Translations under genes and position numbers: made by a program | NCBI GenBank assembly: GCA_963765765.1 | Contig: CAVXYC010000028.1 | Span: 64,001-128,000, forward strand | DNA length: 64,000 nucleotides | Reading direction: 5' to 3' | From: an uncultured Chloroflexia bacterium | GTDB taxonomy: Bacteria > Chloroflexota > UBA6077 > JACCZL01 | Shown here: positions 5,215 to 20,480 of the stretch, piece by piece | Position numbering within the stretch: position 1 is the first letter of the stretch | How the letters are laid out: every line of letters starts with the position of its first letter | Notes under the pieces: model-generated | What the model saw: only the letters and a program-made list of their open reading frames with translations | What the model was told of the DNA's origin: nothing | The model's database searches: none

Positions 5215-5592
5215 ATGTCGACCGTGCTCATTGTCGAAGACGATCAGGAGATCCGCGAGCTCATTGGTGATGTGCTAATGCTCGAGGGATTTACCGTTCA
5301 TTCGATGGCGCGGTTGCCGCATGGCTTGGACCGCATCCGAAACATCGAGCCGGACGTTATTGTGCTCGATCTCGGCCTGCCAGGCATCGGTGGCATCGAG
5401 CTCATGAGGATCATCAAAGAGGATCCGAAACTGGGCTCGATCCCAATCGTTATCTGTAGCGGTGCCGTCGACACCATTCAAGCTCACCGCCAGGAGTTCG
5501 AGGATTTCGGAATACCGGTAGTCCGAAAACCGTTTCACCTCGAGCAGCTTTTGGAAGCGGTGAGAAACCCCGTTCGCACAGCAAGCGACTGA
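5215..5592 (+). CDS. Single-domain response regulator (CheY-like receiver)
   Basis: VLIVEDD, LDLGLP, KPF motifs; 125 aa. Confidence 0.9.
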   Translation: MSTVLIVEDDQEIRELIGDVLMLEGFTVHSMARLPHGLDRIRNIEPDVIVLDLGLPGIGGIELMRIIKEDPKLGSIPIVICSGAVDTIQAHRQEFEDFGIPVVRKPFHLEQLLEAVRNPVRTASD

Positions 5593-5647
5593 ATCGGTTC
5601 TGATAATGCCCAACTCCGGCACACCTCTGGTGGCGTGCGCGACAGGA

Positions 5648-6949
5648 ATGTCGCGTACCCTTTTCTGGCGCGCCTTTCTCTCCTTCATTACTGTAATCGC
5701 GGTCACGCTTATGAGCGGGCCCCCGGCGAGTGGACTGGCCGCGGAAGATTCATTTCCTTACTGGGTTAAAACGATTCGAGAAGCACGTCTGTGGGACGGT
5801 GCCGACGCAAAAGCCAAGTCTCGCGTCTCGATTCCCGCGGAATCTTACTTTGCGGTTACAGGCCCTGTTAGCAAGGGTAGACTGCCCGTTGTGGAGCTCA
5901 CAACTCAGCGAAACGGCTTCTTGAATGCGGACGACGTGGAGCGTGGAGCCCCACCGCCTGAACCAGCGAGCGTTGTCGCACCGACCACTGCGTCGCCAGA
6001 TCTGTCGTCGCCTCCGGCTCCCTCGGCGTCACCTGTCGCATCTCCAGTCCCCGCGACATCCGGATCGGCTCCCGCGTCTGCGTCATCTGCGCCACTCTGG
6101 GTATCAAACCATTCGCCCGCGCCACTATGGACCGGTAGCGGCGACAAGGCATTGCCGCTAGGCGTCGCCGAGCCCGGTCACTGGTTCAAGGTTGTGGAGC
6201 CTCAGCGCGGCCCGCGACTACGGGTCGTGGAGCGCTTGGCTGACAAAGAGATGTACGTTGATGCGTCAGCCGTCGGCCCGGTCGGGGAGCCCAGCGGGCC
6301 CTCGGTACTGGGCAAATGGTGGGGCAAAGTTGGACTTGACGGAATAAACGTCCGCTCCGCGCCAGATACACGGAGCACTGTAATCGGTCAGCTCACGGCC
6401 GGCACTCCGGTAGCTGTCGATGCCTGGGTTGAAGGAACAGACGTCTTTGGCGATCAGCCAGGTTGGGCTAAGCTCGGAAATGACGCCTACATTTATGGGC
6501 CACTGCTTCGTCGAATCGACCTGGGGGCGCCGCCTCCGCCGGCCAAGGCGCCCACACAGGGCAAATGGATCGACGTGAACATCACCCTTCAAGTTATGAC
6601 GGCGTATGAAGGTACGGTACCGGTGTACTGGACCGTGACGTCGGGGGGACGTCCTGGATGGGAGACCGCGGTCGGGAATCATCGAATCCTCTATCGAAGA
6701 GAAGTGGAAACTATGGAAAGCAATCGATTGCTTTCCGTTGATGCGGCGCGCGCGAGCTATCGGGTGGAAAATGTGAAATACACGCAGTACTTCACGAACG
6801 ACGGACAGGCAATTCACGAGAATTACTGGCGTGATCCGGAGCTTTTTGGGATACCCTCCAGTCACGGATGCCTGGGCCTCGCACTGGATGACGCGAAATG
6901 GTTTTGGGATTGGGGTCAGAACGGAATACCAGTAATCGTGCACGTCTGA
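5648..6949 (+). CDS. L,D-transpeptidase (YkuD) with N-terminal signal and SH3-like domains
   Basis: AIH...SHGCLGL catalytic motif; WIDVNITLQVMTAYEG; INVRSAP SH3b-like segment; start at ATG 5648 inferred. Confidence 0.88.
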   Translation: MSRTLFWRAFLSFITVIAVTLMSGPPASGLAAEDSFPYWVKTIREARLWDGADAKAKSRVSIPAESYFAVTGPVSKGRLPVVELTTQRNGFLNADDVERGAPPPEPASVVAPTTASPDLSSPPAPSASPVASPVPATSGSAPASASSAPLWVSNHSPAPLWTGSGDKALPLGVAEPGHWFKVVEPQRGPRLRVVERLADKEMYVDASAVGPVGEPSGPSVLGKWWGKVGLDGINVRSAPDTRSTVIGQLTAGTPVAVDAWVEGTDVFGDQPGWAKLGNDAYIYGPLLRRIDLGAPPPPAKAPTQGKWIDVNITLQVMTAYEGTVPVYWTVTSGGRPGWETAVGNHRILYRREVETMESNRLLSVDAARASYRVENVKYTQYFTNDGQAIHENYWRDPELFGIPSSHGCLGLALDDAKWFWDWGQNGIPVIVHV

Positions 6950-7032: not shown

Positions 7033-7731
7033 ATGCCAAAGAGACGTGTGTTGGTCGTGGACGACGACGAGAACATCGTCAGACTCGTTACGATGTATCT
7101 CGAGAAGGATGGGTACCGGGTCGACGCCACATTCGACGGTCGGGATGCGCTAACTCAGTTCCGTCGCACCAAGCCCGACATCGTCGTTCTTGACCTCATG
7201 CTTCCGGAGATTGACGGACTCAGCGTATGTCGCACAATTCGCGAGCAGTCGGACGTGCCAATCATCATGCTCACCGCTCGCACCACGGAAGGCGATAAGC
7301 TCATAGGCTTGGATCAGGGCGCGGATGACTACGTCACGAAGCCGTTTAGTCCCCGTGAGCTACTGGCGAGGATTCGGGCTGTACTACGCAGAGTTCCCGG
7401 TGAAGAGTCGCCCGGCCCAGTAGAGCTTCGACACGGCGATCTTGTGCTCAACCTGCGGGAACACGTCGCATACGTTCGAGGCGACCAAATCCCGCTGACA
7501 CCAACCGAATTTAGTCTTCTTCAGTCCATGCTGCAATCGCCGGGTCAGGCATTCACTCGCGGTCAACTCATCGAAAGCGCCTTCGGGCACGACTTCGATG
7601 GATTCGAGCGCAACGTCGACGTCCACATCAACAGTCTTCGGAAGAAAATAGAGCCGCTCCCCGGGGAGCCAAGCTACATCAAAACCGTCTACGGTGTCGG
7701 TTACAAGCTTGATGCCCGGGTCCATGCATAA
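7033..7731 (+). CDS. OmpR/PhoB-family response regulator
   Basis: Receiver (VVDDD, LDLMLP, KPFS) plus wHTH (ERNVDVHINSLRKK, TVYGVGYK). Confidence 0.95.
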   Translation: MPKRRVLVVDDDENIVRLVTMYLEKDGYRVDATFDGRDALTQFRRTKPDIVVLDLMLPEIDGLSVCRTIREQSDVPIIMLTARTTEGDKLIGLDQGADDYVTKPFSPRELLARIRAVLRRVPGEESPGPVELRHGDLVLNLREHVAYVRGDQIPLTPTEFSLLQSMLQSPGQAFTRGQLIESAFGHDFDGFERNVDVHINSLRKKIEPLPGEPSYIKTVYGVGYKLDARVHA

Positions 7732-10700
7732 GCAGCTCTGGTTCCGACTACTCCTTGGCTCGTCGTTCATTCTCAGTGTTGCCCTGGCCACCGCGGGGCT
7801 GGTGCTCCATCAATCGACGACATCAAGTTTTGAGGATTATGTCGAGGACGTATCGGCTGCGCGGTCGCAGCGAATTGAAGCACTGCTGAGTCGCTACTAC
7901 AGTCGTCGTCAAGATTGGAACGGAGTCGATCCTCTCGTTGCACAGATTGCGGACCTCGTGGGTCAGCCGGTGGTCCTCGCCGACTCGCGCGACGTCATCA
8001 TCGTCGACAGTCAAAGTCAGCTAAATGGCCAGCGCGTTCGCGAAAACTGGCGCCATCAGGTAGTCCCTATCCGCTCGGGGGACGTCGCGGTCGGCACTCT
8101 CTATATCGATCCTCTGCACGCACCCAGCAAGCTTGGTGCCCGCGGCGACGCGTTCGTCTCCGAGCTAAGCGCATCACTCCTCTCCGCCCTTGGAGTTGGC
8201 CTTCTCGCCGCACTGGCGGTCAGCCTTTTAGTTGCGCGCCATCTTGCTCTTCCACTGGAAACACTTACCGGCGCGGTTCGGCGCCTCGAAGCGGGCGAGC
8301 GCAGCTCACACATGGATGCGAGCATGGGAGGTGAAGTCGGAGCCCTCGCTGTCGCGTTCAATTCACTCGTCGATTCACTTGGGCGCGTTGAGCGATTACG
8401 CTCCAACATGGTTAACGATATCGCGCACGAGCTTCGAACGCCGCTCACCACGATCCGTGGCTACGTCGAGGCTTTCCAGGATGGAGTCGCGGAGCCCACA
8501 CCGGAGATCCTTGATCTCCTCTTCGGCGAGCTCATGCAGCTCACGCGTCTCATCGATGACCTACGTGATATTGCGCTTGCAGAAGCGGGTCAGCTCCATC
8601 TTTCACCAGAACTCACATCTGTCGAGGCGCTCATCAGACACGACGTTCGCGCTGTCGCAGTGGCTGCGGCAGAACAAGAGCTGAGGGTTAGCACAAGCAT
8701 TCCTTCAGATATTCCAAGCATCTGGGTAGACGCAGGGAGATTCAGCCAGGCGCTTCGCAATCTTCTCAATAACGCGGTTGCTCATACACCTCGCGGCGGA
8801 CATGTCTCAGTGATCGCGGAGCACGACGGCAATGACGTAGTGATTCATGTCCAAGATACGGGGCCCGGCATTCCGGCTGAGGATCTCCCACACGTGTTCG
8901 AGCGTTTCTATCGAGGCGATCGATCCCGCTCCAGGCGTGCTGGCGGGAACGGACTAGGACTGACTATCACGCGTGAGCTTGTCTCAGCCCACCATGGCAC
9001 GCTGAGTGTCGCGAGTGAGCCCGGAAAAGGGGCTCGCTTCACTATCCGCCTGCCCATTCGACCACCCGTGACGGTAGAGCCTGCATCCGTCGATGCGCCT
9101 GTCGGAGCGCGCGTCGCGACTGGTTGGCGGCGTGCTACGAACACCGCGCGCTTGGTGTTCTACGCACTCATGTGCGGGGGACTTGCGGGCATGGTGGGTG
9201 GCATGGCTGAATCCCTGCTCGTCGCGATCGCGACGCGTCGGCCCTTGGACACCCTGGGATTGGCGTCTTACGCAATAGTCATCGATGCGATAGTAATTGG
9301 CGGTGTCTGCGCAATGCTGGCGCTCATCTATGGGCTCGTCGCGAGCGGCTTGGGCCACGTGCCACGATTTCGCGATCTCGCACCCGTTATTGGCGCCACC
9401 GGGATTCTCGCCGTTGGTTCCGTCCTTGCGCTTAAGTGGACCCAGCTTACTGCTCGTGATGCGACAATTCCAAATGCGATCACCGGGCAACTTCTCATCG
9501 TGGTCGGAACACTTCTGGTAGCCGTTGTAACGTTCGCCGCACTCTCGACATCTGCACGTTGGCCTCATCGGCCAGTGCTAGTGACTCGACGAGCGGTCCC
9601 TGCTCTCGCAATGACGATCGGATTGATAGCCCTGTTCGGGATCATGCGTGATCTCGCCGATCGGGGTTTCGAGACCCCAATGGCTGTCATGCAAGTGCTT
9701 CGCGACGCCACAACTCGTGAAAGCACTACAGACACAGGCACGGGTGCCACTGCCGCGGTGGCGAGCAACCTGCAGGCGGGTGTGCGCCCCAACGTACTAC
9801 TTGTGAGCGTGGACGCCCTTCGCGCCGATCACCTCGGTGCATATGGCTATAGCGCCGGCAAAACACCAGCGATGGACAGCCTCGCTCGCGAAGGCTGGAT
9901 GAGCGAGCTTGCCATCACTCCGCGTGCCGGCAGCTCCGCCTCTCACGCATCAATCATGACCGGCACCAGCCCGGAAAGGCACGGCATCAGGTCAGACTTG
10001 CTCGACACGCTCGCTCATGACGTTCCGACGCTCGCCGAGATCATGCACGCAAACGGCTATACAACCACCGGGCTCTATAGCTGGTTCAACTTTGAGCCGT
10101 CATACTCCGGGCTTGACCGCGGCTTCCAAACCTATGAGGACTACACGATCAACCTACCTCGGTACCTCGCCGACTCTCGAACTCAAGCGCTGGCGGCCAC
10201 TTACCGGCGACTGAAATCATATCTTGCCCTGCCAGGTGCTGCCGATTTCGACCTCTCGCAACTGGACGGAAGCGAGGGCAATTTGGACGGCAAAGCTGAC
10301 ATTACAGCCTCGGCGGCAGCCCGATGGCTCGAGCGCAGGCGCACCGATCCGTTTTTCCTGTGGGTGCATTTCAGAGATCCGCAATCACCGTATTCGGCGC
10401 CTCTTTCATCAGCTGAAGGAACAGATTGCGCTGACTGCCATGAGCGTTCGCTGGAGGTCTTGCAGCGAATTCGTGAAGGCGCGATAGACCTTTCGGCGCC
10501 CGAGATTAATCGCGTCGTCGGCTCTTATGACGATGAAGTGAGCTTCGTTGACAGGCAGCTCAACGTGATTTTGCAACAGCTCACGCAGCTTGGTTTAGAC
10601 TCGAGTACGGTGGTCATCGTTGTGGGGTCCTACGGTCAAAGCTTTGGCGATCACGGCGCCTGGCTGGAAGGATCAACCGTCTACAATTCAGAGATTCATG

Positions 10701-11101
10701 TGCCGCTCTTGATCCGTTACCCCGCGGTTCTAGCGCCGAATCGAATAGTCCCTGAGCCGTCCAGTGTCATGGACGTAGCTCCAACGATTCTGCATCTAAC
10801 AGGGATTCCCGTTCCATCAACGATGGAAGGTCTGAGCCTGGTATCTGCGATTGACCGCTCAAAGTACGCCGACAGAATCGTTACTTCCGAGAGCCCGTAT
10901 ACAGGCTCGAGGGCGCTCATCACCGGAGGTTGGAAGCTGATTCGGGCCGCGGATGGTCAGGTCGAGCTGTACGAAGTATCAGCCGATCCAGACGAGCTAT
11001 TCGATCGTTCCGAATCGGAGCCCGAACTTGTTCGGCATCTCGTGGAGATGCTGGATCGAGGCATCGACCAACAAGCTCACGTGACGCCGTTCGGCGTCTA
11101 G
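7724..11101 (+). CDS. BaeS-like sensor histidine kinase fused to ~5 TM helices and a sulfatase/alkaline-phosphatase-superfamily domain
   Basis: HAMP, H-box AHELRTPL, N-box NLLNNA, G1 DTGPG, F-box FERFYR, G2 GLGL; then hydrophobic segments and PNVLLVSVDALRADHLG...SHASIMTG in one uninterrupted frame; ATG overlaps the RR stop. Confidence 0.85.
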   Translation: MHKQLWFRLLLGSSFILSVALATAGLVLHQSTTSSFEDYVEDVSAARSQRIEALLSRYYSRRQDWNGVDPLVAQIADLVGQPVVLADSRDVIIVDSQSQLNGQRVRENWRHQVVPIRSGDVAVGTLYIDPLHAPSKLGARGDAFVSELSASLLSALGVGLLAALAVSLLVARHLALPLETLTGAVRRLEAGERSSHMDASMGGEVGALAVAFNSLVDSLGRVERLRSNMVNDIAHELRTPLTTIRGYVEAFQDGVAEPTPEILDLLFGELMQLTRLIDDLRDIALAEAGQLHLSPELTSVEALIRHDVRAVAVAAAEQELRVSTSIPSDIPSIWVDAGRFSQALRNLLNNAVAHTPRGGHVSVIAEHDGNDVVIHVQDTGPGIPAEDLPHVFERFYRGDRSRSRRAGGNGLGLTITRELVSAHHGTLSVASEPGKGARFTIRLPIRPPVTVEPASVDAPVGARVATGWRRATNTARLVFYALMCGGLAGMVGGMAESLLVAIATRRPLDTLGLASYAIVIDAIVIGGVCAMLALIYGLVASGLGHVPRFRDLAPVIGATGILAVGSVLALKWTQLTARDATIPNAITGQLLIVVGTLLVAVVTFAALSTSARWPHRPVLVTRRAVPALAMTIGLIALFGIMRDLADRGFETPMAVMQVLRDATTRESTTDTGTGATAAVASNLQAGVRPNVLLVSVDALRADHLGAYGYSAGKTPAMDSLAREGWMSELAITPRAGSSASHASIMTGTSPERHGIRSDLLDTLAHDVPTLAEIMHANGYTTTGLYSWFNFEPSYSGLDRGFQTYEDYTINLPRYLADSRTQALAATYRRLKSYLALPGAADFDLSQLDGSEGNLDGKADITASAAARWLERRRTDPFFLWVHFRDPQSPYSAPLSSAEGTDCADCHERSLEVLQRIREGAIDLSAPEINRVVGSYDDEVSFVDRQLNVILQQLTQLGLDSSTVVIVVGSYGQSFGDHGAWLEGSTVYNSEIHVPLLIRYPAVLAPNRIVPEPSSVMDVAPTILHLTGIPVPSTMEGLSLVSAIDRSKYADRIVTSESPYTGSRALITGGWKLIRAADGQVELYEVSADPDELFDRSESEPELVRHLVEMLDRGIDQQAHVTPFGV

Positions 11102-15864: not shown

Positions 15865-17028
15865 GTGATTCGCCTCACAGCGCTCATTTTTCTCCTCATC
15901 GTCATGGCGGGTTGTTCCTCCGCGGGAGTGCCGTGGCGTCCCGATGAGCTGCAATGGTGGTGGTCCAATCAGGATCCGCCGGAGGTCACCCTCTCGGGTC
16001 CTGCCCGAGCCGTTAGAGCGAGCACAAGCATCCAGGTGACTCTTCGCCCTGCCGACCGAGCAAGCCTCGTTAGTGCATCGTTGGATGGCTCCGAGATTCC
16101 AGCCCAGACGCCCTTGCAGCTTGATACATCCATCATGAGTGACGGTCTCCATACGATCAGCGTCATGGCGGAAGATCGCTCTCGTCGACGAAATCGCTCT
16201 GAAGCGTCGATCACGATCCAATCCGACAACACTCCACCAAGCCTCACCTGGGACATCCAGCCGAATACGCTGACGCAAGGATCGGCGGCCATCATCCGGT
16301 TGCGTTCCAATGAGCCGACCGCGGTAGAGGCGTCAAGCGACGACCGACCACTTCCACTGGACCTCGGCAACGACTACGCCTGGGCAATCGTGAGCTTCAG
16401 TCCGGACGCCCCGATAGGCCAGAAGTCGCTCACGTTTGTGGGGCGCGACGAGGCCGGAAACGAGTCACGATTGAGCACCACTCTTAGCATCGGCAGCGGT
16501 GATTTCCCATCTGAGGATGTTGAGATCCCTCCCGCTTTGGCGACACTACTCCAACCTGAGTTCCGCGCCGATGAAGAAACCATGCTCGCGGGTATTTTTG
16601 CAAAATCCAATGAGCCACCGCATTGGACAGGCCGCTTTAGAGTGCCCACGGAGGGCACAATCCTTACCGAGTTTGCCACGGAGCGCGCTTTCAATGGCGG
16701 CCCCACGGTTGGTCGCCACGCGGGGGTAGACATCGCCGCGCCACAAGGTTCAGCGGTCCTGGCCTCCCAGGCGGGACGCGTCGCGCTCATAGATCCGCTC
16801 ACAGTGCGGGGCAACACTCTTGTCATTGATCACGGTCACGGCATCTACACGTTGTACGCGCATCTTTCGGAAATCCTTGTCTCGCCGGATGCACAGGTAG
16901 AGGCTGGACAACAGGTGGCGCGTGTCGGTACCACTGGACTTTCCACCGGACCGCATCTTCATTGGGAAGTCTGGGTCGGCGGCGCTAACGTCGACCCCTT
17001 CAATTGGACGAAGCTCGACCTGCCCTGA
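15865..17028 (+). CDS. M23-family peptidase lipoprotein
   Basis: MAG-C lipobox; HAGVD and TGPHLHWE zinc motifs. Confidence 0.9.
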   Translation: MIRLTALIFLLIVMAGCSSAGVPWRPDELQWWWSNQDPPEVTLSGPARAVRASTSIQVTLRPADRASLVSASLDGSEIPAQTPLQLDTSIMSDGLHTISVMAEDRSRRRNRSEASITIQSDNTPPSLTWDIQPNTLTQGSAAIIRLRSNEPTAVEASSDDRPLPLDLGNDYAWAIVSFSPDAPIGQKSLTFVGRDEAGNESRLSTTLSIGSGDFPSEDVEIPPALATLLQPEFRADEETMLAGIFAKSNEPPHWTGRFRVPTEGTILTEFATERAFNGGPTVGRHAGVDIAAPQGSAVLASQAGRVALIDPLTVRGNTLVIDHGHGIYTLYAHLSEILVSPDAQVEAGQQVARVGTTGLSTGPHLHWEVWVGGANVDPFNWTKLDLP

Positions 17029-17138
17029 TCGCGAAGAACCGCGCCGTATCGAAACTGTGTCGTCTCACCATCTGGCTGTAGCGGCGGCGTGACAAGCTCG
17101 TATCTACACTGGCACCACGCGCAACTGCGCGATGCAAG

Positions 17139-18365
17139 GTGTTGCCTGTGGGCTCCAAGCTGCATTCCCGACTGCTCTTTTGGGGGCCTCTCTTCGGCCT
17201 CCTCCTCTTGTTACCGCTGGTTCAGCCGCCGGTGGAATCGGTCCAAGCCGTTGATGGACCAACTCGCCACATTGTGAAATCCGGCGATACGTTGAGCTCA
17301 ATTGCGTTGAACTATGGCGTAGCGATCGATGAGCTCGTCTCGCTCAACTCGATTTCCAATCCAAATCGCATCCCCGAGGGCAGCGCGCTCAGGCTGCCCT
17401 CGGGGGCAGGTGCGTCGGGCAAACGTGAATACATCGTGCGCCCAGGTGACACACTTTCATCAATCTCCGCGACAAATAACATCAGGATCGCCGCGATTTT
17501 GGAGCTCAATGAACTGGAAAATCCCCATCGATTGCGTGTGGGTCAGCAGATTGTGCTCCCACCGGCCTCAGCGGCCCCTGCAAGTCCATCTGCGTCAGCG
17601 CTCGCGGCGCCGCCCAAGGCATCAGCCGTTCCAACGGCCGTCGGATCCGCCCAGACTGCAATTCTGAAGCTCATCCAGACCAAGGTCCCGGAAGGAGCGC
17701 GCGTTGGTATCCTTGCTGTGAACCTGAGTACAGGTGAACGAGTGGAGCATCGCGCCTGGGAATCGTTCCCGGCCGCTAGCGTTGCGAAGCTCGCCGTGCT
17801 CGTCGAGGTTCAGCGCCAGGTTGAAGCAGGCACACTCAAACTCGACGATACGATTCGTAACGACATGCGCAATATGATCGTACTGAGTGACAATCAGGCC
17901 GCCAACCGGCTCATCAACCTGGTGAGTTCAAGCAAGATCAACGCGACAATGGCGCAGCTGGGATTCAAATCCACGATTCTCCGAAATCTGTTTGAGGGCG
18001 CAGCACTTCCGGGTTTCAATGGGCAGCTCAATCAAACCAGCCCAGGTGACATGGTGGCGCTACTCACGCGAATGACTACTGAGCAGCTAGTGTCGCCTTC
18101 CAGTAGCCGCGCCATGCGAGACCTACTGCTCGCCACTCGCGACACCACACGACTGCCACAGCTCTTGCCTTCCGAGGCACGCATCGCTCACAAGAGCGGC
18201 TGGTATCAGGGCGTGTCAAATGATGTCGGCATTATCTACGCTCCAACCGGGCGGTTTGTGGTGGCAGTATTCACGACGGGCTCTAATGACTCCGCCGGCG
18301 AGAGTCGGTTCATCGCTGAGGTCGGTCAGACGCTATACAAAATCTGGACGCAAAAGCCGTCCTGA
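17139..18365 (+). CDS. LysM x2 + class A beta-lactamase-like serine hydrolase
   Basis: HIVKSGDTLSSIA and YIVRPGDTLSSIS LysM repeats; SVAK, SDN, HKSG motifs. Confidence 0.88.
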   Translation: MLPVGSKLHSRLLFWGPLFGLLLLLPLVQPPVESVQAVDGPTRHIVKSGDTLSSIALNYGVAIDELVSLNSISNPNRIPEGSALRLPSGAGASGKREYIVRPGDTLSSISATNNIRIAAILELNELENPHRLRVGQQIVLPPASAAPASPSASALAAPPKASAVPTAVGSAQTAILKLIQTKVPEGARVGILAVNLSTGERVEHRAWESFPAASVAKLAVLVEVQRQVEAGTLKLDDTIRNDMRNMIVLSDNQAANRLINLVSSSKINATMAQLGFKSTILRNLFEGAALPGFNGQLNQTSPGDMVALLTRMTTEQLVSPSSSRAMRDLLLATRDTTRLPQLLPSEARIAHKSGWYQGVSNDVGIIYAPTGRFVVAVFTTGSNDSAGESRFIAEVGQTLYKIWTQKPS

Positions 18366-18841: not shown

Positions 18842-19027
18842 GGCATCTCCTATCGCAATCTCGGAGCGTACCAGGAGTATAGCCAGAACGCTTCGCCGAA
18901 AAGCCCCGAAGATCATCGCTGATCGGTGGAACGAGCTGTGCCTGGAGTCCGAAATAGATGAGCTTCATGTTCCTACACTCCGCGCTTATCCGATCCCCAA
19001 ACATCAGCAGCGGAAGGCACATCCTCC

Positions 19028-20480
19028 ATGGCAGAAACAGCGACTCCAGGCACAACTCGAGATCGATTAAGCACAACGCCGCCATCGCCAATCGAGGCGT
19101 TCTTCTCACTGCGCCAGCGTGGAACGACCGTCGGGACGGAGGTACTGGCTGGCGTTACGACATTCCTGGTGATGGCGTACATCATCTTTGTCAATCCAGC
19201 AATACTGACCTTTGCCAGCGCGCCGCCCTCCAGGGATCGGGTCCACCGTTTGCAGCGACACTCGCCGCAACATGTCTGGTGGCCTCGGTGTCGACCATCG
19301 CCATGGGGCTCTTTAGTAACTACCCTTTCGCGCTTGCTCCTGGGCTAGGGTCTCAACGCGGTGGTATCGTTCACCCTCATCGCCGGGTTGAACCTACCCT
19401 GGCAGGCCGCCATGGGCGTCATCTTTATGGAGGGGCGCTCATTACGATTCTGGTCCTCACCGGCTTCCGTGAAGCAGTGATGCACGCGATCCCAAACTCG
19501 CTGAATAAGGGAATCAGCGTTGGGATCGGCCTGTTCATTCTCTTCATCGGGTTAGAGATTGGCGAGCTCATTGTCTGGGGCTCCAGAGATATCTGGTACT
19601 CCCGTCGCGATTGCGCCGATGGACTCACCGCGGCAATTGGTCACAGTCGTAGGCTTCGCCTTGACGCTCGGCTCTTCGCGCGTGGCACGCTCGGCGCGCT
19701 GCTCTAGGGAATTCCCAACACAACACTCTTTGCTGTCATTGTGAATGCCATAACTGGAACTACGGCGATTACGATTCCCGGGTATGGCGACCGTGCCAAG
19801 CGCCATCGTGGTGCGCCTGAGTTCTCTACCATCGGGCAGGGACTCAACTTCAGCGTTTTCAGTTACATCGGTGTGTCGGCGGCGGTGCTCACGATCTTTT
19901 CGCTGATGCTCTCGGACTTCTTCGACACCATGGGTACGGTAATCGGCGTTGGCGAAGAGGCCAATTTGCTGGATACAAAGTGGCCGACTTCCAGGCCTCA
20001 ACCGGGTCCTTCTGGTTGATTCACTTGCAGCCGCTCTGGGCGGAATCTGCAGTGCGAGCTCAGCCACGACGTATATCCAGAGCGCCGCGGGCGTCAGCCA
20101 GGACGGTCGCACCGGTCTGACATCCGTTGTCGTTGGGGTCCTATTTCTGGCCGCGCTTTTCTTTTCTCCGATCGCCGTCGCCGTTCCTCCGCATGCCACG
20201 GCTCCAGCACTCATTATCGTCGGGTTCCTGATGGCCGGGCTCGTCCTTGAGATTCCGTTCGACGACGTGGAGGAAGGTTTTCCTGCGCTGGTCACCATCG
20301 CACTTATGCCGTTTACATTTCAGCATTTCCAACGGCATTGGCGGGGGCTTCATCACCTACGTGTTCATCCAACTCGTTCGAGGAAAAGCTAGCGATGTCC
20401 ACCCCTTGCTTTATGGAGTGGCGGTTGCATTTGCGATTTACTTTGCACTCGTGCCGATCCGCTCCGCATTGGGGGTGTGA
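19028..20480 (+). CDS. NCS2/AzgA-family purine permease, broken by about 5-6 frameshifts (assembly error or pseudogene)
   Basis: EVLAGVTTFLVMAYIIFVNP, ALAPG, DFFDTMGT, GRTGLT, ATAPALIIVG distributed over successive frames. Confidence 0.8.

What the first reader, a model, noticed from the sequence alone, without database searches (positions are those of the whole stretch)
7724..11101. Histidine kinase fused to a membrane-tethered, catalytically degenerate sulfatase-like domain
Seen: a complete TM-HAMP-HisKA-HATPase kinase (ending ARFTIRLP near 9050) continues in frame through a Pro-rich linker, about 5 hydrophobic helices and a ~440-aa sulfatase-like domain from about 9785. Established: kinases normally end at the HATPase, and sulfatase-family enzymes use (C/S/T)xPxR/H, DPH and SDHG motifs. 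Here these read SSASHAS, DPQ and GSYG, so metal-binding Asp/His residues appear lost. Inference: an odd TM count would put the domain outside the membrane, as in LtaS/EptA-type proteins, where it could be a pseudoenzyme sensor or scaffold for sulfated or phosphorylated envelope polymers. It is in an operon with an OmpR regulator and follows an L,D-transpeptidase gene, consistent with envelope sensing. I know of no described system with this architecture.
Basis: partly seen in the sequence, partly recalled or inferred. Interest (0 to 1): 0.8.

Follow-up and report, generated by a model that had tools for sequence, protein, structure and literature searches.

The report
Kinase fused to inactive sulfatase-like domain
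A soil Chloroflexota family has a membrane sensor kinase whose chain goes back through the membrane and ends in an outside-facing, enzyme-shaped domain that has lost its catalytic residues but is still strongly conserved, so it probably binds or senses something rather than acting as an enzyme.

Summary
Window 7724-11101 (+) is one open frame of 1125 aa. It reads TM, PAS/PDC-like sensor, TM, HAMP, HisKA, HATPase_c, an unconserved linker, five TM helices, then a ~440-aa sulfatase-fold domain.

It is not an assembly artefact. All 10 species genomes of the family carry one copy, and 8 are complete single frames at 44-73% identity. Each of the 8 loci that reach upstream has an OmpR-type regulator directly upstream. 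The fused form was not found in the other 56 genomes of the class. Only 2 full-length fused representatives appeared among the best 150 matches out of 1.84 billion protein clusters.

The domain belongs to an uncharacterised clade anchored by 5 TM helices, whose standalone members keep six conserved positions (Asp, Thr, His, Asp-His, His). Fused proteins keep only 1-4 of the 6, never the Thr, and three subclades lost different residues. Even so, dN/dS of the domain is 0.12-0.18, as low as the kinase core.

In a sister family, standalone intact homologs lie directly downstream of regulator-kinase pairs (5 of 9 loci).

My best reading is an enzyme turned into a non-catalytic, outside-facing sensing or regulatory module built into the kinase. 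PbgA/YejM is the closest analogue. The ligand and the coupling mechanism are untested.

The parts
7033..7731 (+). OmpR-type response regulator (232 aa), the cognate partner; its stop overlaps the kinase start by 8 nt
   Evidence: Pfam Response_reg 8.7e-32 and Trans_reg_C 2.4e-25. The overlap ATGCATAA is seen. A homologous regulator lies directly upstream in all 8 fused loci that reach upstream.
7724..11101 (+). Whole fused gene, 1125 aa plus stop
   Evidence: Single ORF. Full-length single-frame orthologs in 7 other genomes.
7736..8257 (+). TM1 (aa ~5-29), extracytoplasmic PAS/PDC-like sensor domain (aa ~30-142), TM2 (aa ~143-178)
   Evidence: Hydropathy. AF2 model has pLDDT 88.5 with a long helix, a short helix, a 4-stranded sheet and a helix. 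Best folds are the WalK extracellular domain (7dud_A, E 3.7e-4, rmsd 2.8 A), then BaeS, CitA and DctB.
8228..9061 (+). Cytoplasmic HAMP (aa 169-219), HisKA (226-289) and HATPase_c (336-446) kinase core with intact H, N, G1, F and G2 boxes
   Evidence: Pfam. H235, N346/N350, D378-G380-G382, F392-R397 and G407-L413 are invariant in 12 fused sequences.
9062..9121 (+). Unconserved Pro/Ala/Val-rich linker between kinase and membrane re-entry (aa 447-466)
   Evidence: Residues 448-475 show 7-30% identity among orthologs and pN 0.62 against pS 0.78.
9122..9661 (+). Five-helix transmembrane module (aa 467-646) with a conserved polar signature (G489, G493, E496, R505, Y516, D521, W572, R622)
   Evidence: AF2 helices, hydropathy and loop charge bias. 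The signature is invariant in the fused forms and shared with most standalone relatives. No Pfam family at E<=0.01.
9662..9787 (+). Poorly conserved stalk between the last TM helix and the soluble domain (aa 647-688)
   Evidence: 6-39% identity, dN/dS 0.36-0.65, and pLDDT <50 for model 198-219.
9788..11053 (+). Extracytoplasmic sulfatase-fold (alkaline phosphatase superfamily) domain, catalytically degenerate (aa 689-1110)
   Evidence: Pfam Sulfatase and SGSH_C. Fold match to S1 sulfatases at Z 31-41. dN/dS 0.12-0.18.
9812..9814 (+). D697, the only one of six core positions retained in this protein (first-strand Asp)
   Evidence: Column table.
9932..9946 (+). S737-S-A-S-H741, at the position of T-x-P-x-H in standalone relatives and C-x-P-x-R in S1 sulfatases
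10382..10384 (+). Q887, at the position of the His of the DPH motif
10427..10438 (+). C902-x-x-C905, a Cys pair invariant in all fused forms and in the closest standalone relatives
10628..10669 (+). S969-Y970 (position of the D-H pair) through E982 (position of a conserved His)

Best explanation
SHOWN
- This is a genuine, family-wide gene for a seven-TM class I histidine kinase.
- After a normal periplasmic-sensor kinase (TM, PAS/PDC-like domain, TM, HAMP, HisKA, HATPase_c), the chain passes through the membrane five more times and ends in an outside-facing sulfatase-fold domain.
- That C-terminal module descends from a clade of standalone, 5-TM-anchored proteins of the alkaline phosphatase superfamily that keep six conserved positions (Asp, Thr, His, Asp-His, His).
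- In every kinase-fused copy, 2 to 5 of the six positions are replaced. The Thr is always replaced, and different subclades lost different residues.
- The domain as a whole is under purifying selection as strong as that on the kinase core.

INFERRED
- Catalysis became dispensable once the module was tethered to the kinase.
- The module now works without catalysis, most likely as a second extracytoplasmic input. It would bind an envelope lipid or polymer related to the ancestral substrate, and pass occupancy to the kinase through its TM bundle and/or the neighbouring PAS/PDC sensor domain.
- This would set phosphorylation of the co-transcribed OmpR-type regulator.
- It would then be a built-in version of arrangements normally made of separate proteins: WalK with YycH/YycI, MtrB with LpqB, or the 5-TM pseudo-hydrolase PbgA/YejM.
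For: REAL GENE
- All 10 species genomes of the family have one copy. Eight are complete single frames with no stops at 44-73% identity. One is cut by a contig end inside the TM region. One is cut inside the kinase; that genome, G006, is unpublished, and only the figure '10 of 10' rests on it.
- Five further full-length fused proteins come from metagenomes, and two fused cluster representatives from the exhaustive search.

TOPOLOGY
- Five TM helices follow the cytoplasmic HATPase.
- The loops expected inside are K/R-rich in 12 of 12 sequences.

CATALYTIC LOSS ONLY IN FUSED FORMS
- The 12 distinct fused sequences keep 1-4 of 6 core positions; this protein keeps 1.
- Of 11 standalone sequences, 8 keep 6 of 6, one keeps 5 and two keep 4. 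All 6 TPR-linked outgroups keep 6 of 6.
- In a second set, fused P0122 keeps 2, P0123 keeps 4 and the fused fragment P0002 keeps 2. Of 17 standalone representatives, 15 keep 6 and 2 keep 5.
- Thr at column 737 is present in 0 of 15 fused sequences, against 9 of 11 and 16 of 17 standalone sequences.

INDEPENDENT DECAY
- Subclade A keeps the Asp but lost the D-H pair. Subclade B lost the Asp but keeps the D-H pair (D-N in one member). Subclade C has D-N, E-N or D-Q.
- An intact standalone protein (P0009) nests among the fused forms. Forcing all fused forms into one clade is marginally rejected (AU p=0.03).

SELECTION
- In four unsaturated pairs, dN/dS of the sulfatase-like domain is 0.12, 0.18, 0.14 and 0.17. 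The kinase core gives 0.25, 0.20, 0.17 and 0.21, and the stalk 0.36-0.65.
- Identity to distant fused orthologs is 44-47% for this domain, against 45-48% for the N-terminal sensor region.

FUNCTIONAL LINKAGE WITHOUT FUSION
- In 5 of 9 standalone loci, all five in sister family f4, the intact homolog lies directly downstream of a regulator-kinase pair on the same strand.

NO BACKUP ENZYME
- Family f1 genomes have no standalone member of the TM-anchored clade.

PRECEDENTS
- PbgA has five TM helices plus a periplasmic alkaline phosphatase superfamily domain lacking the usual catalytic residues (PMC7018646, passages read).
- Full-length PbgA (6xlp_A) is the only listed structure whose aligned range spans both the TM and soluble parts of the model (Z 33.2, 451 aligned, rmsd 12.7 A).
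- The N-terminal sensor is WalK-like. WalK/YycG is modulated by the membrane-anchored YycH/YycI, encoded in the same operon, and mtrAB/lpqB is organised the same way (PMC3262814, passages read).
Against: - No ligand, binding event or effect on kinase activity has been observed. The sensing step is pure inference.
- Subclade A, including this protein, keeps Asp697 and has Ser at the Thr position. P0007 and P0123 keep 4 of 6 positions. Residual or altered chemistry is therefore not excluded.
- Calling the six positions 'catalytic' rests on their correspondence to known motifs of the superfamily (for three of them, recall for the rest). No member of this clade has been characterised. I could not inspect model coordinates, so the geometry of the former metal site was not examined.
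- The kinases of the family f4 three-gene loci are not close relatives of this kinase (phmmer E 1e-35 to 1e-47, against about 1e-100 for the nearest unfused kinases). Those nearest unfused kinases have no TM-sulfatase gene beside them. The fusion is therefore not shown to descend from such an operon.
- One expected outer loop (TM3-TM4) carries 2 K/R in most sequences.
- P0124 (644 aa, Thr retained, 4 of 6) starts inside the first helix of the module. It could be a fragment of a fused protein, which would break the '0 Thr in fused' count.
Confidence: 0.55

Rival explanations
1. Scaffold or anchor. The dead domain is conserved because it positions or stabilises the kinase, for example by tethering it to a wall polymer or a membrane zone, or by helping it dimerise. 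It would carry no signal.
For: - There is purifying selection without the catalytic set.
- The fold and the motif neighbours are conserved (LRADH, D885-P886, W980, G983).
- The kinase already has its own WalK-like sensor domain, so a second input is not required.
Against: - The recurring pairing of this clade with regulator-kinase pairs in another family suggests a regulatory relationship more than a structural one.
- The PbgA precedent is regulatory.
- Nothing here separates binding for localisation from binding for signalling.
Confidence: 0.2
2. Bifunctional protein with a still-active enzyme. The domain would catalyse a reaction with a changed active site, for example a Ser nucleophile in subclade A, and the fusion would only co-localise enzyme and kinase.
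For: - Ser737 and Asp697 are kept in this protein and its close relatives. H741 is nearly invariant.
- The TM polar signature shared with intact relatives is invariant.
- dN/dS is low.
Against: - Subclade B has Ile or Arg at the nucleophile position (Ser in G005) and has lost the first-strand Asp.
- Subclade A has lost the D-H pair and the late His.
- No single alternative set is conserved across the fused clade. A common chemistry is hard to see even though the rest of the domain is 44-47% conserved.
Confidence: 0.1
3. Output rather than input. The kinase's conformational or nucleotide state would control an activity of the 5-TM module, such as lipid binding or transfer, with the soluble domain as an accessory.
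For: - Membrane-embedded polar residues (E496, R505, Y516, D521, W572, R622) are invariant in fused forms and shared with standalone relatives.
- In PbgA the TM domain is the part essential for growth (PMC7018646).
Against: - The TM region is the less conserved part: 23-31% identity against 44-47% for the soluble domain, and dN/dS 0.25-0.40 against 0.12-0.18.
- I know of no precedent for a HisKA kinase driving a C-terminal membrane effector (recalled, not searched).
Confidence: 0.1
4. Artefact. Two adjacent genes were joined by an assembly or sequencing error, or the fusion is recent, neutral and decaying.
For: - The source is a metagenome-assembled genome (91.8% complete, 6.9% contamination).
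- A two-gene arrangement exists in another family.
Against: - The same single frame is present in 8 independently assembled species genomes across 6 genera. It is also present in separate metagenome proteins.
- No indel was reported on the junction.
- Purifying selection acts on both halves.
Confidence: 0.02

Closest known systems
PbgA/YejM (LapC) of Enterobacteria
   Same: - It has five TM helices followed by an extracytoplasmic alkaline phosphatase superfamily domain that lacks the usual catalytic residues (PMC7018646, passages read).
- It acts in regulation of envelope lipid balance through LapB/LpxC rather than as an enzyme (titles and abstract starts only: PMC7240159, PMC9356133).
- Structural matches: full-length 6xlp_A at Z 33.2 with an aligned range over both the TM and soluble parts, and the periplasmic domain 6vat_A at Z 32.9, rmsd 3.2 A, 329 aligned.
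   Different: - PbgA is a free-standing protein that signals through protein partners. Here the module is covalently joined to the C-terminus of a histidine kinase.
- PbgA's TM domain is described as DUF3413 in that paper. This TM region matches no Pfam family at E<=0.01.
- The soluble domain here is closer to S1 sulfatases (Z up to 41) than to PbgA. The full-length superposition is loose (rmsd 12.7 A).
- The host is a Chloroflexota lineage, and the ligand is unknown.
Accessory-protein-regulated wall kinases: WalK(YycG)-YycH/YycI and MtrB-LpqB
   Same: - An OmpR-family regulator and a kinase with a small extracytoplasmic PAS/PDC-type sensor are encoded together with a membrane-anchored extracytoplasmic partner that modulates the kinase (PMC3262814, passages read).
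- The N-terminal sensor here is closest in fold to the WalK extracellular domain.
- The three-gene loci of family f4 (regulator, kinase, TM-sulfatase) have the same layout.
   Different: - YycH, YycI and LpqB are unrelated folds and separate polypeptides.
- Here the partner is an alkaline phosphatase superfamily pseudoenzyme fused in cis after the ATPase domain.
- The NCBIfam WalK, MtrB and BaeS models score far below their cut-offs (214.5 vs 725; 181 vs 450; 240.5 vs 500).
LtaS/LtaP and EptA/EptC/MCR-1 type membrane-anchored transferases
   Same: - N-terminal multi-TM anchor plus an outside-facing alkaline phosphatase superfamily domain. The five-TM count and the Thr nucleophile of these enzymes are recalled, not tested here.
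- Standalone relatives of the module keep Thr at the matching motif position.
- Structural similarity: Z 32.6 (LtaP), 29.2 (LtaS), 28.6 (EptC), 27.6 (EptA) and 26.9 (MCR-1).
- eptA(pmrC) being co-transcribed with pmrA-pmrB is a recalled parallel to the f4 loci; it was not checked here.
   Different: - The fused forms lack the Thr and several other core positions.
- The domain carries the C-terminal SGSH_C subdomain and is nearer to S1 sulfatases and phosphonate monoester hydrolases in sequence and fold.
- The aligned ranges of these hits covered only the soluble domain.
S1 formylglycine-dependent sulfatases and phosphonate monoester hydrolases
   Same: - Best sequence matches (6hhm_A, 3.5e-26; profile hits 1e-77 to 1e-47).
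- Best fold matches (Z 31-41, rmsd 2.3-3.9 A; Foldseek E about 1e-21).
- Same two-subdomain build.
   Different: - There is no C/S-x-P-x-R motif, either here (S-S-A-S-H) or in the wider clade (T-x-P-x-H/x).
- The positions aligned to the D-H pair and to the PH histidine are lost here.
- This domain is membrane-anchored and joined to a kinase.
PorX (response regulator with a PglZ alkaline phosphatase superfamily domain)
   Same: A two-component protein fused to an alkaline phosphatase superfamily domain (PMC9757075, abstract start only).
   Different: There the fusion is to the regulator, not the kinase. I recall it as cytoplasmic and enzymatically active, but only the abstract start was seen. 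The branch of the superfamily is different.

Membership tests
Class I (HisKA) sensor histidine kinase | HisKA dimerisation/phospho-acceptor domain with the H-box His, and HATPase_c with N, G1, F and G2 boxes | tested here: met
   Pfam HisKA 56.1 bits and HATPase_c 113.9 bits, both above cut-off. H235, N346/N350, D378/G380/G382, F392-R397 and G407-L413 are invariant in 12 sequences.
BaeS / WalK / MtrB equivalogs (NCBIfam) | Whole-protein score above the curated cut-off | tested here: not met
   BaeS_SmeS 240.5 vs 500, HK_WalK 214.5 vs 725, MtrB 181 vs 450. This shows similarity of the kinase core only.
Pfam Sulfatase PF00884 (alkaline phosphatase superfamily) | Domain score above the gathering threshold | tested here: met
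   137.7 bits vs 25, residues 689-1028 covering profile positions 1-301 of 301. SGSH_C scores 46 vs 29.3.
S1 formylglycine sulfatases | C/S-x-P-x-R signature that is converted to formylglycine | tested here: not met
   S-S-A-S-H aligns to C-A-P-S-R of 6hhm_A. Relatives have T-x-P-x-H/x.
S1 formylglycine sulfatases | Metal-binding Asp, Asp and Asp-His/Asn set | tested here: not met
   D-A where D-D lies, and S-Y where D-H lies.
S1 formylglycine sulfatases | Two-subdomain sulfatase fold | tested here: met
   VIA-align Z 31-41, rmsd 2.3-3.9 A, 347-391 residues aligned. Foldseek E about 1e-21, target TM-score 0.61-0.74.
LtaS / EptA-type membrane-anchored transferases | Multi-TM N-terminal anchor followed by an extracytoplasmic catalytic domain | tested here: met
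   Five predicted helices followed by the domain. Topology is inferred from the cytoplasmic kinase plus loop charge bias. It was not measured.
LtaS / EptA-type membrane-anchored transferases | Thr nucleophile and metal ligands | tested here: not met
   Thr is present in 0 of 15 fused sequences, and this protein keeps 1 of 6 core positions. The feature is met in most standalone relatives.
LtaS / EptA-type membrane-anchored transferases | Closest structural neighbours | tested here: inconclusive
   Z 26.9-32.6, below the S1 sulfatases at 31-41. Only the soluble domain was aligned.
PbgA/YejM | Five-TM domain plus alkaline phosphatase superfamily periplasmic domain lacking catalytic residues | tested here: met
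   The definition is taken from PMC7018646.
PbgA/YejM | DUF3413-type TM domain | tested here: not met
   No Pfam family matched residues 447-688 at E<=0.01. 6xlp_A aligns over model 11-669, but with rmsd 12.7 A, so the TM fold relationship remains open.
PbgA/YejM | Binds LPS or lipid and regulates LpxC through LapB | not testable with these tools
   Needs biochemistry. Whether this lineage makes LPS was not examined.

The most novel reading that the evidence does not exclude
This would be a previously undescribed class of histidine kinase in which the polypeptide re-enters the membrane after the ATPase domain. It would present a former envelope-modifying enzyme as a second, non-catalytic receptor on the outside, so that one protein reads two extracytoplasmic inputs.

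The clade would also preserve the route from enzyme to receptor in living lineages. The stages are:
1. Intact standalone enzymes.
2. Intact enzymes encoded next to regulator-kinase pairs.
3. Fused forms in which three lineages lost different catalytic residues independently while the fold stayed under selection.
Probability: 0.45. Interest if true: 0.8.

Novelty: new variant of a known kind. Interest (0 to 1): 0.66.

Why it matters
Sensor kinases are normally built with the input first and the catalytic core last. A conserved kinase that carries a membrane re-entry and an outside-facing domain after the ATPase breaks that rule, and it widens what domain-architecture searches should expect.

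It is also a clean natural case of an enzyme turning into a probable receptor. Intact relatives are available as controls, different catalytic losses occurred in sister lineages, and selection on the dead domain is measurable.

If the module does report on an envelope lipid or polymer, it would be a one-protein counterpart of PbgA/YejM or WalK-YycHI. It would also give a first handle on envelope homeostasis in poorly known soil Chloroflexota.

The uncharacterised 5-TM-anchored, Thr-type sulfatase-fold clade is itself a target for enzymology.

Tried and rejected
- COMPLEX PREDICTION. I asked whether the C-terminal module (aa 465-1125) contacts the kinase's own TM1-sensor-TM2 region (aa 1-180). 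One search was collected. The result was 'no answer' (ipSAE 0.29 and 0.26, mark 0.32, controls not run). This is neither support nor evidence against.
- READ SUPPORT. No run held more than 28% of the sampled words. Only 151-374-nt contig pieces could be laid. One piece bridges 9050-9200, and most of 9200-9320 had no cover. The single RNA-library piece (9486-9649, 4 mismatches) does not show transcription.
- NAMED-GENOME SCAN with the single module sequence. It found only the congener (L013, a Chloroflexota MAG record), so it gave no wider named distribution.
- EARLIER NOTES OF THIS SCAN: nothing.
- LITERATURE. Four searches found no paper describing a kinase-sulfatase fusion. The term sets were: histidine kinase / sulfatase / pseudoenzyme / sensor domain; HATPase_c / Sulfatase / domain architecture; alkaline phosphatase superfamily / histidine kinase / fused / transmembrane; sulfatase-like / threonine nucleophile / transmembrane / alkaline phosphatase superfamily. 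This covers only the held open-access library.
- OTHER KINASE-SULFATASE FUSIONS. The 16 long or multi-stretch hits of the profile search that I scanned were tandem kinases or tandem/TPR sulfatases.
- L,D-TRANSPEPTIDASE NEIGHBOUR as a clue: rejected, because the upstream genes differ among orthologous loci.
- THE ~45-aa INSERT (aa ~808-850). It is highly conserved but has low pLDDT. I considered it as a fusion-specific interface and rejected that, because it is present in standalone TM-anchored relatives too.
- Q vs G001 dN/dS: synonymous sites were saturated, so I replaced it with closer pairs.
- THE A1 PROFILE against PDB sequences picked up TPR proteins, because TPR-bearing relatives were in the alignment. 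Those rows were ignored.
- EptA, LtaS and PbgA did not appear in the 60 best sequence matches shown, nor in the listed Foldseek top 50. They appeared only in the VIA-align search.

Full report
WHAT IS THERE

Window 7724-11101 (+) is a single open frame of 1125 codons. Pfam finds HAMP (169-219), HisKA (226-289) and HATPase_c (336-446). After a 240-residue stretch with no family, it finds Sulfatase PF00884 (689-1028, 137.7 bits) with the SGSH_C subdomain (975-1095).

The gene start overlaps the stop of an OmpR-type regulator (7033-7731) by 8 nt. The junction DNA is clean.

The stretch with no family holds five hydrophobic segments. AlphaFold2, run on a 57-sequence alignment, models them as five long helices at protein residues 467-646, followed by a confident alpha/beta domain (mean pLDDT 83.6, pTM 0.76). 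Together with TM1 and TM2 of the kinase this makes seven membrane passes. The ATPase domain must be cytoplasmic, so the C-terminal domain is outside. Loop charges agree with this in 12 of 12 fused sequences, except that one expected outer loop carries two K/R.

IS IT REAL?

Yes. A search of 41 related genomes gave full-length, stop-free matches in 7 other genomes, at 73% identity in the congener and 44-46% in five other genera.

All 10 species genomes of the family have exactly one copy:
- Eight are complete single frames.
- G003 is cut by a contig end at residue 617, already inside the extra TM region.
- G006 is cut at residue 361, so its architecture is undetermined. G006 is an unpublished genome, and only the figure '10 of 10' rests on it.

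The fused form was not found in the other 29 genomes of the order at E<=1e-105, or in the other 56 genomes and 17 families of the class at E<=1e-130.

The word-indexed protein search found five more full-length fused proteins from metagenomes and two partial ones. The exhaustive profile search of 1.84 billion cluster representatives listed two full-length fused representatives and two fragments among its best 150. Everything else was a standalone kinase, a standalone (TM-)sulfatase or a tandem protein.

Public read data gave only short contig pieces. One bridges 9050-9200 without gaps, and no indel was reported.

The organism is a soil-type Chloroflexota lineage, judged from the names carried by relatives.

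WHAT THE C-TERMINAL MODULE IS

By sequence and by fold the soluble domain is nearest to S1 sulfatases and phosphonate monoester hydrolases. Foldseek gives E about 1e-21, and VIA-align gives Z 31-41 at rmsd 2.3-3.9 A.

Its own relatives, however, form a distinct and uncharacterised clade. This clade has an N-terminal five-helix anchor with a conserved polar signature (E496, R505, Y516, D521, W572, R622) and a ~45-residue insert. Its motifs are D-x-L-R-A-D-H, T-x-P-x-H/x, D-P-H and D-H-G-E...H-G. Thr sits where S1 sulfatases have the Cys that is converted to formylglycine.

Further out are hundreds of sulfatase-TPR proteins with the same six positions.

The match of these six positions to the Thr, Asp-His and His sets of EptA/MCR-1-type enzymes is my recollection and was not tested. 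The alignment to S1 sulfatases for three of them is shown.

THE KEY RESULT: CATALYTIC LOSS ONLY IN THE KINASE-FUSED FORMS

I tabulated six core columns: 697, 737, 887, 969, 970 and 982.

First set:
- The 12 distinct fused sequences keep 1-4 of the six. This protein keeps only D697.
- Of 11 standalone sequences, 8 keep all six, one keeps five and two keep four. The two that keep four are both from G035.
- All 6 outgroups keep all six.

Second set, from the exhaustive search:
- Fused P0122 keeps 2 and P0123 keeps 4. The fused fragment P0002 keeps 2.
- Of 17 standalone representatives, 15 keep six and two keep five.

Thr at column 737 is found in 0 of 15 fused sequences, against 9 of 11 and 16 of 17 standalone ones. 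One sequence is ambiguous: P0124 starts inside the first helix, retains the Thr and keeps 4 of 6.

The losses differ by lineage:
- Subclade A (this protein and its relatives) keeps the first Asp, has Ser for Thr, and replaced the D-H pair by S/A-Y/F.
- Subclade B lost the first Asp and has Ile or Arg at the Thr position (Ser in G005), but keeps the D-H pair (D-N in G004).
- Subclade C has Ala, Gly or Val at the Thr position and D-N, E-N or D-Q at the pair.

A maximum-likelihood tree of the module puts all fused forms in one well-supported group whose sister (L019) is intact. One intact standalone protein (P0009) nests inside that group. Holding the fused forms together as a clade is marginally rejected (AU p=0.03). 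P0009 has no kinase remnant at its N-terminus, although I could not see its upstream DNA. Whether there was one fusion with one later fission or more than one fusion, the catalytic residues must have been lost more than once.

THE DEAD DOMAIN IS STILL NEEDED

Its identity to distant fused orthologs (44-47%) equals that of the N-terminal sensor region (45-48%). It is well above the TM region (23-31%), the linker (7-30%) and the stalk (6-39%).

Against the congener, synonymous sites are saturated. In four closer pairs, dN/dS values are:
- Sulfatase-like domain: 0.12, 0.18, 0.14 and 0.17.
- Kinase core: 0.25, 0.20, 0.17 and 0.21.
- Stalk: 0.36-0.65.

Residues flanking the lost catalytic positions stay invariant (L699-H703, H741, D885-P886, W980, G983). 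A Cys-x-x(-x)-Cys pair is invariant in fused forms and their nearest standalone relatives. This fits a maintained pocket in an oxidising compartment, but that is inference.

The family's genomes contain no standalone member of the TM-anchored clade. The tethered, inactive copy is therefore the only one they have.

LINK TO TWO-COMPONENT SIGNALLING WITHOUT FUSION

Of nine standalone loci fetched from sister families, five have an OmpR-type regulator and a kinase directly upstream on the same strand. These are G026, G031, G029, G018 and G033, all in family f4. Four do not: two in G035, one in G015 and one in G013, and two of those sit on short contigs.

These f4 kinases are not close relatives of the fused kinase. 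The nearest unfused homologs of the fused kinase (in G020 and G039) have no such neighbour. The association with regulator-kinase pairs is therefore recurrent, but a direct operon-to-fusion descent is not shown.

Only the regulator-kinase pair is conserved around the fused gene. The upstream L,D-transpeptidase in this window is not conserved.

THE KINASE'S OWN SENSOR

Residues 1-185 fold confidently (pLDDT 88.5) as TM1, a long helix, a small alpha/beta domain and TM2. The closest structures are the extracellular domain of WalK (7dud_A, E 3.7e-4, rmsd 2.8 A over 131 columns), then BaeS, CitA, DctB and DcuS. The protein therefore has two outside-facing modules.

HOW IT MOST LIKELY WORKS

- Shown: the architecture, the number of helices, the lineage-specific loss of the core positions, the purifying selection, the conserved regulator partner and the recurrent genomic pairing.
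- Inferred: the outward topology, the loss of catalysis, and a non-catalytic role.
- Proposed (confidence about 0.55): the module binds an envelope lipid or polymer related to its ancestral substrate. It passes occupancy to the kinase through membrane-helix packing and/or contact with the WalK-like sensor domain, and so sets phosphorylation of the OmpR-type regulator.

Precedents for the parts of this logic:
- PbgA/YejM has five TM helices and an alkaline phosphatase superfamily domain without the catalytic residues (PMC7018646, passages read). Its role in LpxC control I saw only in listings.
- Full-length PbgA was the only listed structure whose aligned range ran over both parts of the model (6xlp_A, Z 33.2, 451 residues, rmsd 12.7 A).
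- WalK-YycH/YycI and MtrB-LpqB are kinases modulated by membrane-anchored extracytoplasmic partners encoded in the same operon (PMC3262814, passages read).

Rivals are a pure scaffold or localisation role (0.2), a still-active enzyme with altered chemistry (0.1), the module as an output controlled by the kinase (0.1), and artefact (0.02).

NOVELTY

The components are known kinds: a HisKA kinase, an alkaline phosphatase superfamily pseudoenzyme and a 5-TM anchor. My four searches of the held literature found no description of the arrangement, in which membrane re-entry follows the ATPase domain and a dead sulfatase-fold domain is displayed outside. It is rare in sequence space.

I file it as a new variant of a known kind. 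It is not a member of the S1 sulfatases because the signature and metal set are not met. It is not a member of LtaS/EptA because the nucleophile is not met. It is not a member of PbgA/YejM because no DUF3413 match was found. It plausibly works like PbgA joined to a WalK-type kinase.

LIMITS

- No biochemistry has been done.
- Model coordinates could not be inspected.
- The complex prediction gave no verdict (see Tried and rejected).
- The function of the standalone clade is unknown.
- The third fused subclade is known only from metagenome proteins.
- Supplements of the cited papers were not consulted.

Noticed in passing
window 5215-5592 and 5606-6949: A receiver-only response regulator (125 aa) is followed directly by a 447-aa protein. 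That protein has a signal/TM start, a long Pro/Ser/Ala-rich low-complexity stretch, an SH3_3 domain and a YkuD L,D-transpeptidase domain. This pair lies just upstream of the regulator-kinase unit but is not conserved there in orthologous loci.
   Followed up: partly
window 18958-19704 and 19949-20389: Two adjacent same-strand ORFs both match the Xan_ur_permease family, at profile positions 33-140 and 266-381. This looks like one permease gene split by a frameshift, a stop or a sequencing error.
   Followed up: no
window 15865-18362: An M23 peptidase (387 aa) lies next to a protein with two LysM repeats and a class-A-like Beta-lactamase2 domain (408 aa), followed by a Fur-family regulator on the opposite strand. 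These wall-related genes are about 5 kb from the finding, and no link to it was tested.
   Followed up: no
L017:1847-3874 and L021:12-2042 (both genome G035): Two standalone TM-sulfatase paralogs in one genome each keep only 4 of the 6 core positions (E/S..D-E and D/T..D-N/Y). Partial degeneration therefore also occurs outside the kinase-fused context.
   Followed up: partly
window 9122-9661 (aa 467-646) and relatives: The five-helix anchor carries a membrane-embedded acidic/basic signature (E496, R505, Y516, D521, W572, R622). It is invariant in fused forms and shared by most standalone relatives. It matches no Pfam family and may be an undescribed lipid- or substrate-binding membrane domain.
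   Followed up: partly
window 10145-10273 (aa ~808-850): A ~45-residue insert typical of the whole TM-anchored clade is absent or shorter in the TPR-linked outgroup. It is nearly invariant in fused forms yet modelled at pLDDT 47-68.
   Followed up: partly
L014:3279-3698 (genome G031): In one unfused locus, an extra ORF matching a response regulator (E 2e-24) sits between the kinase and the TM-sulfatase gene.
   Followed up: no
proteins P0012-P0121: Hundreds of proteins, named from Acidobacteria and other phyla, join the same Thr-type sulfatase-fold domain to long TPR arrays. A few join it to a YbhN/UPF0104 membrane domain (P0067, P0095). The six I tabulated keep all six core positions. I found no characterised member.
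   Followed up: no
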